This document shows, piece after piece, positions 17,166 to 19,964 of a DNA stretch of 64,000 nucleotides (its first letter is position 1; every line of letters begins with the position of its first letter). The DNA comes from the human T2T-CHM13v2.0 reference genome, Homo sapiens, in assembly GCF_009914755.1 (NCBI RefSeq), contig NC_060936.1; one strand, written 5' to 3'. The translations under genes and the position numbers were made by a program. Below the pieces are notes generated by a model. That model was given only the letters and a program-made list of their open reading frames with translations, was not told the origin of the DNA and searched no databases.

Positions 17166-17406
17166 GACTGTACACACATGTGGGTCTTATGAGGGGCACT
17201 AATATAATGCTGCTTTGTAATACTAGAATTGTTCCTATGTGCATTCCTATGTTGTCAGGATTATGGCAAATAGTTGTGCATAGTGGTATGTAACAAGTGT
17301 TGTTTCCCAGATTTAGAGCCTTCTTTTTATTTTTCATGTGGTCAAACAACTGAGGAGAAGAACAGAAAACTCTCCTCTGACACTGTTGTTAGAAGAGACT
17401 TCAAGA

Positions 17407-17703
17407 GGCTGGGCATGGTGGCTCATGCCAGTAATCCCAGCACTTCCCGGAAGGCCAAGGTGGGAGGATCACCTGAGGCTGGGAGTTCAAGACCAGCCTG
17501 GCCAACATACAGAAACTCTGTCTCTACTAAAAATACAAAAATTGGCCATGCATGGCGGTGGGCACCTGTAGTCCCAGCTACTCAGGAGGCTGAGGCATGA
17601 GAATTGCTTGAGCCTGAAAGGTAGAGGTTGCAGTGAGCTAAGATTGTGCCACTGCACTCCAGCCTGGGTGACAGACTGAGATCCTGTCTCAAAAAACAAA
17701 AAC
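17407..17703 (+). mobile_element. Alu (AluS/J-type) whose A-tail is split by a later insertion; the tail resumes at about 19062-19084
   Basis: Full dimer. The upstream flank acttcaagag (17398-17407) recurs only at 19084-19093, after a second (AAAAAC)n tract. Confidence 0.92.
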
Positions 17704-19080
17704 ATCTTCTTGTGGAAGCTTAATTACCTGTCCTAATTCCTCAGCCCTTACATCTCCTTGCACTAGACACACTCATTTACAAACTCTATACTTCTACTGT
17801 TTTTTAATATATATTTATATATGTATAAAAATATATATATTTTTTTATTATACTTTAAGTTCTAGGGTACATGTGCACAACGTGCAGGTTTGTTACATAG
17901 GTATACATGTGCCATGTTGGGACAGGGAATTAAGCTTCCACAAGAAGATTCATTCCTTTTCTTAAAATGTGTCATTCTATGATAAGGGGTTAATATCTAA
18001 AATATATAAAGAACTCAAACAACTTCATAGCAAGTAAACAAATAACCCAATTAAAAAATAAGCAAAGGACCTAAATAGATATTTCCTATGGGAAGAGATA
18101 CAGCTGGCTAACAAGTACATTAAAAAATGTTCAACATCACTAATTATTAGGGAAATGCAAATTAAAACCACAACGAAATATCACCTTATACCTAGCTATA
18201 GATTAGCTATTATCGTAGATTAGTTATTATCATAAAGATAAAAGATAAGTATTAGCAAGGATGTAGAGAAAAGGGAACCCTGGTATACTGCTGTTGGGGA
18301 TATATCATCTAGCCATTATGAAAAATAGTATGGAAGTTCCTCAAAAAATTAAAATAGAATTACCTATATGATCCAGTGATCCCACTATAGGGTATATATC
18401 CAAAGGAAAAGAATTCAGAATGACAAAGAGATATCTGCACTCCAACATTCACTGCAGCAGTATTCACCTTGGCTAAACATACAGAATCAACCTAAGTGTT
18501 CATTGACACATAAATGGAAATGGAAAAAGAAAATATGGTATATGTACACAACCAATATTATTGAGCCTTTAAAAAGATAAAAATCTCCTAATTTGTAACA
18601 ACATGGATGAATCTTGAGGATATTATGTTAAGTAAAATAAGCCAGGCTCAGGAAGACAAATACTGCATGACCTCGCTTATGTATGAAATCTAAAAAACAA
18701 CAAACTCATAGAAGGAGAGAGTAGAACGGTGGTTACCAGGAGCTGAGGTGGGGTAGTGGGGTGGGATTAGAGAGATGTTTGACCAAAGGGTACAAAATTT
18801 CAGTTAGATGGAACAGTAGGTTCAAGAAATCCATTGTACAATATAATGACTACAGTTAATAACAATGTATTTTATACTTGAAAATTGCAAGGAGAGATTT
18901 TAATTGTTCTCACAACAAAAAAATAAGTATTTGAGGTAATACATATGTTAGCTTGAGTCCACTATTCTAGTGTATACATATTTCAAAACTCAATGTTGTA
19001 CACCATAAGTATATATAATTTTGTGAATTAAAAATAAAATAAAATGTGACATTCAAAAAAACAAAACAAAAACAAAAACA
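17704..19080 (+). mobile_element. 5'-inverted (twin-primed) L1PA insertion carrying a ~1.25-kb 3' transduction
   Basis: Inverted part 17704-17920 (flank, A/T tail and L1PA 3' end at 17840-17920 on minus); 29/30-bp inverted duplication at 17704-17733 and 17920-17949; direct part 17920-19054; AATAAA at 19033, then an A-tail. Confidence 0.8.
17979..19040 (+). mobile_element. 5'-truncated L1MA (L1MA5-8-like) 3' end with its own TSD
   Basis: ORF2 C-terminal remnant plus L1MA-type 3'UTR; TSD aaaatgtg(t/a)cattc at 17965-17978 and 19041-19054, following a TT|AAAA site. Confidence 0.88.
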
Positions 19081-19964
19081 AAAACTTCAAGAGAGGCCTA
19101 TAAAGAAGGGGAAGGAGAAGGAGTTGAGTGAGCAGCCTTACAGTGGCTGTGTGGCAGCCAACAGCCCTGGCGGTGGGATATAGGAATAGAATCAGAAAAG
19201 CAGTCAAGATTTAACTAAAGACCCAGGTGTGGAGACGCTCAGGTGGAGATAAATTCACCTCTGATGGGGTGGCATTTGTTGGGAGAGGAGGAAGGGAAGG
19301 AATTTATATGAATCTTAGGAATATTGTGTGAGAATATGTGAAGGAAGCTGTAGGGAAAATGGCAAGGTAAGTACAGTATGTGAAACGGTAATTGGTGGAG
19401 GGTATAAAGCAGCATTATGAGAGGCTCTTGAAGGGAGTAATTGTGTTAAGGCACTTGATAGCTACAACCCATCATCTGCTAGAAGTAGGGTCGCTGTTGT
19501 GTTTACAACCAAGTAGAACAGTGCCATGAGTAGGCTAATAGAAGGGTGTCAGAAATGTATGCAAACTGCATTGAGGGGGAGCCCTCTTTCTCAGTTCCCA
19601 TGTGAGAGGAGGGAATGAGCTAGAGTAAATTGTTTCAATAAACATCACTTTATTTATGATGCTGGTCCTGGCAACTCAGAGGTAGCAGTGCACACCCTTC
19701 AGTACTGCATCTTACCAAAGGACTGAGCTAGTCAGGAAAATAGATTTCATATGAGGTATTAACTCCTGTTACATACTCAGGCTGTGACTTACACAACAAG
19801 CTCTGTCTTAGGGGAACTGTACGCTGTTTAGCAGGGAAGATCTCTTGGAGCAAAAGCTTTTGCTGAAATCTCTTGAATCATGAAACTATTTCTTTCCACT
19901 TAAAGGCATATTGATCTCTCTCTTCCTTTCCACCATGGGAGAAGAGAAAATAAAAGGAAGTCGA

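What the first reader, a model, noticed from the sequence alone, without database searches (positions are those of the whole stretch)
17391..19093. Twin-primed L1 3' transduction nested in an Alu tail, importing a foreign locus with its own L1MA
Seen: (1) The Alu's TSD acttcaagag reappears 1.4 kb after the Alu body, behind a second (AAAAAC)n tract. (2) 17704-17733 is the reverse complement of 17920-17949 (29/30). (3) Flipping 17704-17920 gives one continuous RNA: L1PA 3' end, A/T tail, unique flank, ggacagggaattaagcttccacaagaagat, L1MA with both 14-bp TSDs, AATAAA (19033), cleavage at CA ~16 nt later, then poly(A). Established: L1 read-through produces 3' transductions, and twin priming produces 5' inversions, sometimes with a duplication at the breakpoint. 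Inference: a source L1PA elsewhere read through to the poly(A) signal of a downstream L1MA and retrotransposed into this Alu tail. That explains an apparently older L1MA sitting inside a younger Alu. Repeat annotation would show only unrelated fragments.
Basis: partly seen in the sequence, partly recalled or inferred. Interest (0 to 1): 0.85.

Follow-up and report, generated by a model that had tools for sequence, protein, structure and literature searches.

The report
Inverted L1-carried copy inside Alu tail
A 1.35-kb piece of chromosome 14, joined to the last 72 bases of a young L1 element, was copied through RNA into the A-rich tail of an older Alu on chromosome 12 with its front end flipped, which is a clear but ordinary case of known L1 behaviour.

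Summary
The short direct repeat that flanks the Alu lies at 17398-17407 and again at 19084-19093. The 30-nt inverted repeat (17704-17733 / 17920-17949) matches at 29 of 30 positions; its 22-nt exact core exceeds the longest match (14 nt) in 100 shuffles.

A whole-genome search found one donor locus, on chr14 at about 73.087 Mb, minus strand. There the flipped piece (17704-17800) and the direct piece (17920-19054) form one collinear stretch. It differs from the window at 53 of 1219 aligned positions (4.3%). It runs on past the window's poly(A) junction into unique, GU-rich DNA with no A-tail. The old L1 fragment travelled as a passenger: its next-best genomic copies are only 70-75% identical.

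The layout fits twin priming with a 30-nt cDNA overlap and a 2-nt junction microhomology, inside an (AAAAAC)n Alu tail.

One prediction failed. The chr14 site has no young L1 at the junction, and none within 10 kb on either side. So "3' transduction" needs a source L1 that was never fixed or is missing from this assembly. The alternative is a template-switch chimera.

Every mechanism involved is already known: a new member of a known kind, of low-to-moderate interest.

The parts
17398..17407 (+). 5' copy of the Alu target-site duplication (ACTTCAAGAG; 8-10 nt secure)
   Evidence: D13
17408..17690 (+). Alu body. It is old: only 2 CpG remain, and it is 79% identical to a young Alu on chr14. The subfamily was not tested.
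17691..17703 (+). Left part of the Alu tail, A6-C-A5-C
17704..17733 (-). Inverted copy of the 30-nt cDNA overlap. This is the internal priming end, and it abuts the Alu tail.
   Evidence: (I1)
17734..17800 (-). Inverted unique chr14 flank. With the overlap, it is 93 nt aligned to chr14 with 5 substitutions.
17801..17847 (-). A/T-rich tail (47 nt) following the young L1 3' end. Other genomic L1 3' ends carry similar degenerate tails.
17848..17921 (-). Last 72-74 nt of a young (L1PA-type) L1, complete to its 3' terminus. It is 93-99% identical to dozens of genomic L1 3' ends.
17920..17921 (.). GG microhomology at the inversion junction, shared by the L1 end and the chr14-derived direct piece
17920..17949 (+). 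Direct copy of the 30-nt overlap, where the poly(A)-primed cDNA begins
   Evidence: (I1)
17950..17977 (+). chr14 flank, including the 5' target-site duplication of the old L1 (17964-17977)
   Evidence: (D7)
17978..19039 (+). Old LINE-1 3' fragment (end of ORF2 plus 3' UTR), imported as a passenger. It is 95% identical to chr14 and at most 75% to any other copy.
19033..19043 (+). Two overlapping AATAAA signals in the A-rich end of the old L1 (one AATAAA on chr14)
19040..19054 (+). 3' target-site duplication of the old L1. The end of chr14 homology, and so the inferred cleavage and polyadenylation site, lies after 19054.
   Evidence: (D7)
19055..19083 (+). A7-C-A4-C-(A5C)n tract: the insert's poly(A), any hidden target-site duplication and the right part of the Alu tail. 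These cannot be separated.
19084..19093 (+). 3' copy of the Alu target-site duplication
   Evidence: D13

Best explanation
Proposed order of events:
1. An Alu inserted at this chr12 site. Its A-tail then decayed into an (AAAAAC)n microsatellite.
2. Roughly 15-25 million years ago (inferred from 4.3% divergence), L1 endonuclease nicked the T-rich bottom strand of that tail.
3. L1 reverse transcriptase copied one polyadenylated RNA into the nick. Read 5' to 3', that RNA was: the 3' end of a young L1, its A/T-rich tail, about 1.2 kb of chr14 sequence (minus strand, about 73.087 Mb in this assembly) containing an old L1 fragment with both of its target-site duplications, and a poly(A) added 11 nt after the old L1's AATAAA.
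4. Reverse transcription was primed twice (twin priming). The poly(A)-primed cDNA reached back to GGACAGG (17920). A second cDNA, primed internally at ...AAGAAGAT from the other side of the break, ran through the flank, the tail and 72 nt of L1.
5. The two cDNAs were joined at a GG microhomology. This left a 217-nt inverted 5' part and a 30-nt overlap present in both orientations.

The RNA was most likely a read-through (3' transduction) transcript of an L1 that once sat directly upstream of the copied chr14 stretch. That L1 either never reached fixation or is missing from this haplotype.

What is shown: the donor locus, the collinearity, the boundaries and the geometry. What is inferred: the RNA intermediate, the order of events, the date, and above all the former presence of a source L1 on chr14.
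For: Donor locus:
- The unique flank and the junction with the old L1 each match exactly one other place in the genome, chr14 (all 40 first-look candidates scored).
- The two window pieces are collinear there, with a 26-30 nt overlap.
- Substitutions are 48 of 1126 in the direct piece and 5 of 93 in the inverted piece.
- The next-best copies of the old L1 are 70-75% identical (40 of 18451 candidates scored).

Direction of copying:
- chr14 continues as unique sequence on both sides, and those flanks are single-copy.
- chr12 ends in an A-rich tract.

RNA intermediate:
- Homology stops 11 nt after AATAAA on chr14, and a GU-rich stretch follows at once.
- The other end carries a complete L1 3' terminus plus its tail.

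Twin priming:
- The overlap copies lie at the outer end of the inverted piece and at the start of the direct piece.
- There is a 2-nt microhomology at the junction.
- Both overlap copies share two differences from chr14, a C/T change and an AGA indel, as expected for one template.
- Passages of PMC12016303 report 5' inversions in 18% of germline L1 insertions and cDNA overlap in 42% of inverted germline ones.

Nesting in the Alu tail:
- A5C-periodic tracts lie on both sides of the insert, inside one Alu repeat pair.
- The bottom strand of such a tail offers TTTT/G, one of the endonuclease motifs listed in PMC12016303.

After the copy:
- Substitutions fall about evenly on the two lineages: 16 on chr12, 21 on chr14 and 8 ambiguous, out of 45 polarised with four outgroup copies.

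Source L1s absent from a reference:
- These are documented in living humans (passages of PMC9311842, and PMC12350158).
Against: - The donor site carries no L1. Unique sequence directly precedes the copied stretch.
- In 10 kb on either side, the only match to the L1 part of the probes is a 421-nt stretch at 72% identity. It lies about 7 kb away on the far, 3' side, and is an old fragment rather than a candidate source.
- No sibling insertion carrying the same flank, or a longer read-through, exists in this genome. The putative source therefore has a single recorded offspring.
- The inferred insertion point of the source L1 on chr14 is not a canonical endonuclease site. It would read TATT/CC or CTGT/AT on the nicked strand, against TTTT/A (motif as listed in PMC12016303).
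- The insert's own target-site duplication and poly(A) cannot be told apart from the Alu tail.
- There is no convincing complementarity between the Alu-tail primer and the RNA at the internal priming site (6 of 11, all A/T, I1).
- The 30-nt overlap is longer than the upper quartile (17 bp) reported in PMC12016303.
Confidence: 0.7

Rival explanations
1. Template-switch (or RNA-ligation) chimera, with no L1 ever resident on chr14. A polyadenylated non-L1 transcript of the chr14 minus strand was mobilised in trans; it started at or near CAGTAGAAG and ended at the old L1's poly(A) signal. The internally primed reverse transcriptase ran to its 5' end, jumped onto the poly(A) end of an L1 mRNA, and copied the tail plus 72 nt.
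For: - The donor site is empty, and no young L1 lies within 10 kb.
- The junction on chr14 is not a canonical endonuclease site.
- No sibling offspring exist.
- Template switching and RNA ligation are the proposed routes to U6/L1, Alu/L1 and mRNA/L1 chimeras (passages and section 12 of PMC13174262).
Against: - It needs an extra event on top of twin priming, and a transcript start at exactly this point for which there is no evidence.
- In the chimeras described in PMC13174262 the L1 is the 3' (first-copied) partner. Here it would be the 5' partner.
- Read-through is frequent: 8.8% of polymorphic L1 insertions carry a transduction (PMC12350158). Non-reference sources are also documented.
Confidence: 0.15
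2. A single-event Alu/L1 chimeric insertion. The Alu and the L1-carried segment entered together in one target-primed event, bounded by the one recognisable repeat pair, rather than the insert landing later in a resident Alu's tail.
For: - Only one clear repeat pair bounds the Alu plus the insert (D13).
- The Alu is full length and in sense orientation relative to the direct piece, like most of the 452 Alu/L1 chimeras reported in PMC13174262 (section 12).
Against: - The inverted cDNA lies between the Alu and the direct piece. In twin priming that cDNA is primed from the target's own top strand, so whatever lies to its left was already target DNA.
- The same A5C periodicity is found in the tract left of the insert and in the tract right of it. 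That is what a split, already decayed Alu tail gives. Two freshly made poly(A) tails would not.
- The Alu looks older than the insert: it keeps 2 CpG and is 79% identical to a young Alu, against 4.3% pairwise divergence for the insert.
- A digit search of the 4 supplementary files held for PMC13174262 found nothing. This is a weak check, because the hg38 coordinates I used were my own estimate.
Confidence: 0.05
3. DNA-level event with no RNA intermediate: ectopic repair or a small duplicative transposition of chr14 DNA into a break in the Alu tail, with a separate inversion.
For: The A-rich tract after the insert could in principle be Alu tail only, so a poly(A) tail is not strictly proven.
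Against: - One boundary falls 11 nt after AATAAA and just before a GU-rich stretch.
- The other end is a complete L1 3' terminus with a tail that is absent from chr14.
- The position of the overlap is the specific signature of twin priming.
Confidence: 0.03

Closest known systems
L1 3' transduction (read-through of the L1 poly(A) signal; partnered transduction)
   Same: An L1 3' terminus with its own tail is followed by a unique sequence. That sequence maps collinearly to one other locus and ends at a downstream poly(A) signal there.
   Different: The donor site in this assembly has no L1. At about 1.2 kb the transduced stretch is long: PMC9311842 reports 7-997 nt for polymorphic cases. The stretch itself contains an older L1 whose poly(A) signal was used.
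Twin priming 5' inversion (Ostertag and Kazazian 2001, seen here only as a citation in PMC12016303 and PMC12350158)
   Same: The 5' part is inverted. Both parts come from adjacent stretches of one template. The overlap lies at the start of the inverted cDNA and the end of the direct cDNA. There is microhomology at the junction.
   Different: The inversion breakpoints fall in transduced, non-L1 sequence, so only 72-74 nt of L1 survive, and those are inverted. The 30-nt overlap exceeds the reported upper quartile of 17 bp.
Nested retroelement insertion into an Alu A-tail
   Same: The Alu's repeat pair encloses the Alu plus the insert, and the tail microsatellite lies on both sides of the insert.
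   Different: The insert's own target-site duplication cannot be read, because it would consist of the tail repeat itself.
Alu/LINE-1 and RNA/LINE-1 chimeric insertions (PMC13174262)
   Same: A full-length sense Alu lies 5' of L1-mobilised sequence within one visible repeat pair. A template switch is a possible route to the L1-chr14 junction.
   Different: An inverted cDNA separates the Alu from the direct piece. The L1 would be the 5' partner rather than the 3' partner. The tail periodicity argues for two sequential events.

Membership tests
L1 3' transduction | L1 3' terminus with its own A-rich tail, followed by non-L1 sequence | tested here: met
   17848-17921 matches genomic L1 3' ends up to their last base. 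A 47-nt A/T-rich tail follows, then unique sequence.
L1 3' transduction | The transduced sequence maps collinearly to a single donor locus | tested here: met
   chr14 minus strand, 53 substitutions in 1219 aligned positions. It is the only other match in the genome.
L1 3' transduction | The transduced sequence ends at a poly(A) signal of the donor, with a new poly(A) in the copy | tested here: met
   AATAAA lies 11 nt before the end of homology, and chr14 is GU-rich just after it. The copy continues with A7 and more, although this merges with the Alu tail.
L1 3' transduction | The donor sequence lies directly 3' of a source L1 | tested here: not met
   Unique sequence precedes the copied stretch, and no young-L1-grade match lies in 10 kb on either side in this one assembly. 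Non-reference sources are known, so this lowers the membership claim without excluding it. I therefore say it works like a 3' transduction, with membership provisional.
L1 3' transduction | One target-site duplication encloses the L1 plus the transduced sequence | tested here: inconclusive
   Both flanks are A5C tail repeats, so any duplication is unreadable.
Twin priming 5' inversion | The 5' part is inverted relative to the poly(A)-proximal part, and both come from adjacent or overlapping parts of one template | tested here: met
   L004 1593->1501 and 1526->400 on one strand, with the overlap present in both window copies.
Twin priming 5' inversion | The template-3' end of the inverted piece abuts the 5' target flank, and the template-5' end meets the start of the direct piece | tested here: met
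   ...AAGAAGAT (reverse complement) abuts the Alu tail at 17704. The L1 end meets GGACAGG at 17920.
Twin priming 5' inversion | Complementarity between the target-derived primer and the internal priming site | tested here: inconclusive
   Only 6 of 11 A/T-rich matches beyond the repeat arm (I1).
Nested insertion in a resident Alu tail | The Alu repeat pair encloses both elements, and tail sequence lies on both sides of the insert | tested here: met
   (D13, D5, D6).
Nested insertion in a resident Alu tail | Species exist that have the Alu but lack the insert | not testable with these tools
   No other primate genome is held.
Alu/LINE-1 chimeric insertion (single event) | The Alu is directly joined, through its tail, to a sense-oriented L1-mobilised 3' segment | tested here: not met
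   A 217-nt inverted cDNA lies between the Alu tail and the sense segment.
   64% nt identity over 792 nt and collinear tblastx hits to a young L1 3' region. 18451 first-look candidates, with the scored ones 70-75% identical. Pfam gave nothing for 4 of 4 short frames. The subfamily label L1MA was not tested.

The most novel reading that the evidence does not exclude
No L1 ever sat at the chr14 donor. The L1-to-chr14 junction was made when the internally primed reverse transcriptase reached the 5' end of an ordinary chr14 transcript and jumped onto the poly(A) end of an L1 mRNA. That would be a chimeric retrocopy with the L1 as the 5' partner, the reverse of the polarity of the catalogued U6/L1, Alu/L1 and mRNA/L1 chimeras, and it would have been caught inside a twin-priming event.
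Probability: 0.13. Interest if true: 0.45.

Novelty: new member of a known kind. Interest (0 to 1): 0.3.

Why it matters
The locus is a worked example of how an apparently impossible nesting arises from known L1 behaviour: an old L1 sitting inside the flanking repeats of a younger Alu. It also shows that such cases can be resolved from a single genome by finding the donor.

It is a caution for repeat-age reasoning. A passenger repeat carries the age of its donor locus, not the age of its insertion.

If the read-through reading is right, the copy is the only surviving trace in this genome of an L1 that was active on chr14 some 15-25 My ago and never became fixed. It also shows that an ancient L1's poly(A) signal can still terminate transcripts.

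Nothing here changes the understanding of L1 mechanisms.

Tried and rejected
- Rfam scan of 17000-19500: 0 matches at gathering scores.
- Pfam on 4 of the 21 open frames listed over the old L1: 0 families. The LINE-1 identity was shown by DNA and tblastx comparison instead.
- Search for sibling insertions or a longer read-through, using the chr14 sequence just beyond each end of the copied stretch: self-matches only, plus one weak 57-nt hit on another chromosome at 85%.
- Search for the source L1 within 10 kb on each side of the donor, using eight loci that carry young L1 3' ends as probes. There were 10 hits in all: Alu-like matches, plus one 421-nt, 72% match to an old L1 about 7 kb away on the 3' side.
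- Tracing a parent L1 through the A/T-rich tail: the extended matches in five other L1 loci are low-complexity only.
- Whether the locus is listed among published Alu/L1 chimeras: no occurrence of the coordinate digits in the 4 supplementary files held for PMC13174262. My hg38 coordinate was an estimate from recall, so this check is weak.
- Rejected: pol III read-through from the Alu. The insert contains T6 and T7 runs, which by established knowledge terminate pol III.
- Rejected: an independent insertion of the old L1 on chr12. It is 95% identical to chr14 against at most 75% to any other copy, and the flanks and target-site duplications are shared.
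Full report
**What is in the window.**
- An Alu begins at 17408, and its body ends at 17690.
- A short tail follows, A6-C-A5-C (17691-17703).
- The ten bases before the Alu (17398-17407) recur exactly at 19084-19093 (D13), directly after a longer tract of the same periodicity, A7-C-A4-C-(A5C)3. 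The first two bases of that repeat could belong to the tract, so 8 to 10 nt are secure.
- 17704-17733 is the reverse complement of 17920-17949 at 29 of 30 positions (I1). Its 22-nt exact core was reached by 0 of 100 dinucleotide-preserving shuffles of the region, whose maximum was 14.
- Between the arms, read on the minus strand, lie the last 72-74 nt of a young L1, complete to its terminal base. They are 93-99% identical to dozens of genomic L1 3' ends.
- A 47-nt A/T-rich tail follows the L1 end, and then unique sequence.

**The donor locus.** I searched the window's own genome with 17704-17980 (all 40 first-look candidates scored).
- The L1 end hit many loci, as expected.
- The unique flank (query 5-100) hit exactly one other place, chr14 73088282-73088377 on the plus strand.
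- The stretch across the start of the direct piece (query 214-277) hit the same place on the minus strand, 73088250-73088310.
- BLAST of the window against that locus (L004) gave 17708-17800 (+) = L004 1501-1593 (+) at 94.6%.
- It also gave 17920-19040 (+) = L004 1526->409 (-) at 95.3% over 1122 columns.
- On the chr14 minus strand the two window pieces therefore form one uninterrupted stretch that overlaps by the duplicated segment.

**Boundaries of the copy.** Reading the locus and the alignments shows where the copy starts and stops.
- On chr14 the sequence continues past ...GTGACATTC into unique, GU-rich DNA (TGGTGGCTTC...) with no A-run.
- Upstream of CAGTAGAAG the chr14 sequence is also unique.
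- Both of these outer flanks are single-copy in the genome.
- The only AATAAA on chr14 lies 11 nt before the end of homology.

**The old L1 is a passenger.** A search with 17950-19054 found chr14 at 95% identity. Every other scored copy was 70-75% identical over comparable lengths (40 of 18451 first-look candidates were scored).
- The fragment is collinear with the 3' part of a young L1 at 64% nt identity over 792 nt, with matching tblastx frames. It is therefore a LINE-1 ORF2-end plus 3'-UTR fragment of an ancient family.
- Pfam found nothing in 4 short frames.
- I could not test the subfamily label 'L1MA', because no repeat library was available.
- Its two 14-nt target-site duplications (17964-17977 and 19041-19054) and an internal 17-nt tandem duplication (18199-18232) are present on chr14 too. 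All of this predates the copying.

**Age and direction.**
- Substitutions number 48 of 1126 in the direct piece (9 of them CpG transitions, with 4 indel events) and 5 of 93 in the inverted piece.
- Four other old-L1 copies served as outgroups for the 45 substitutions inside the old L1. Of these, 16 fall on the chr12 copy, 21 on chr14, and 8 are ambiguous. This is roughly symmetric, as expected for neutral drift after a copy event.
- At about 1e-9 substitutions per site per year per lineage (a recalled approximation), 4.3% pairwise divergence means roughly 15-25 My.
- The Alu keeps only 2 CpG and is 79% identical to a young Alu near the donor. It looks older than the insert. Its subfamily (AluS-like by recall) was not tested.

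**Mechanism.** The layout is that of twin priming.
- The template-3' end of the inverted piece (...AAGAAGAT) abuts the target, which is the Alu tail at 17704.
- Its template-5' end (the L1 fragment) meets the start of the direct piece at 17920, with GG shared by both.
- The two cDNAs overlap by 30 nt of template.
- Both overlap copies share a C/T change and an AGA indel against chr14, as expected if they were copied from one RNA.
- Passages and section 8 of PMC12016303 report 5' inversions in 18.4% of germline L1 insertions and cDNA overlap in 42% of inverted germline cases. The median overlap there is 12 bp with quartiles 4-17, so 30 nt is long but of the same kind.
- That paper also lists TTTT/G among the endonuclease cut motifs. 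The bottom strand of an (AAAAAC)n tail offers this motif at every unit.
- The same A5C periodicity on both sides of the insert argues that a resident, already decayed Alu tail was split. This favours nesting over a single-event Alu/L1 chimera of the kind catalogued in PMC13174262 (452 cases; section 12).
- In a single-event chimera the inverted cDNA could not lie between the Alu and the direct piece.

**What failed.** It does not.
- Unique sequence precedes the copied stretch on chr14.
- I used eight loci carrying young L1 3' ends as probes. Two of them share 1.4 kb of L1.
- They gave 10 hits in two 10-kb flanks. Most are Alu-like matches. One is a 421-nt stretch at 72% identity about 7 kb away on the 3' side, which is an old fragment.
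- No sibling insertion shares the flank.
- The inferred insertion point of the source on chr14 is not a canonical endonuclease site.
- The read-through origin therefore requires a source L1 that was never fixed or is absent from this haplotype. Non-reference source L1s are documented in living humans (PMC9311842 passages; PMC12350158 passages), and most new insertions are lost by drift, so this is not far-fetched.
- The evidence equally allows a template switch from a chr14 transcript onto an L1 mRNA tail. That route is discussed for other chimeras in PMC13174262. I put this at about 0.15.

**Limits.**
- No other primate genome, pangenome or repeat library was available. The order of events, the date and the subfamily names therefore rest on inference or recall.
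- The insert's own target-site duplication and poly(A) cannot be separated from the Alu tail.
- The supplement check of PMC13174262 covered the 4 files held as text, and it used hg38 coordinates that I estimated from recall.
- Ostertag and Kazazian 2001 and the L1PA activity dates were not read here. They are recalled, or seen only as citations.

**Verdict.** The specific claim of read-through from a resident L1PA is plausible but unproven, because the donor site is empty. All the mechanisms are known, so this is a new, well-resolved member of a known kind, and I score interest at about 0.3.

Noticed in passing
L004:1793-2086 (chr14, about 200 nt upstream of the donor stretch): A CpG-rich, young-looking Alu with a long pure T/A tail and an 8-10 nt target-site duplication (CAATTCTT) lies just outside the copied stretch. 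It is not part of the copy, so it gives no order of events.
   Followed up: partly
L006:570-951 versus L005:2489-2871 and L007:224-604: One of the young L1 loci used as a probe (chr3, about 168.30 Mb) has a 380-nt L1 segment in opposite orientation to its own 3' part. This looks like another 5'-inverted (twin-primed) L1.
   Followed up: no
window 18199-18232: A 17-nt tandem duplication inside the old L1 fragment (15 of 17 identical) is also present on chr14, so it is older than the copy event.
   Followed up: yes
window 19031-19043 versus L004 about 415-430: The chr12 copy has an extra 5-nt unit in the A-rich end of the old L1, which gives it a second AATAAA. chr14 has one. The direction of the change is unknown.
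   Followed up: partly
window 17801-17847: The tail behind the young L1 end is A7, then about 34 nt of TA-rich sequence, then A6. It could be a decayed poly(A), or a very short earlier transduction from a grandparent locus. It is too low in complexity to trace.
   Followed up: partly
L018:2311-2722 (chr14, about 73.0795 Mb): An old LINE-1 fragment, 72% identical to a young L1 3' region, lies about 7 kb beyond the 3' end of the donor stretch. It is unrelated to the event.
   Followed up: no
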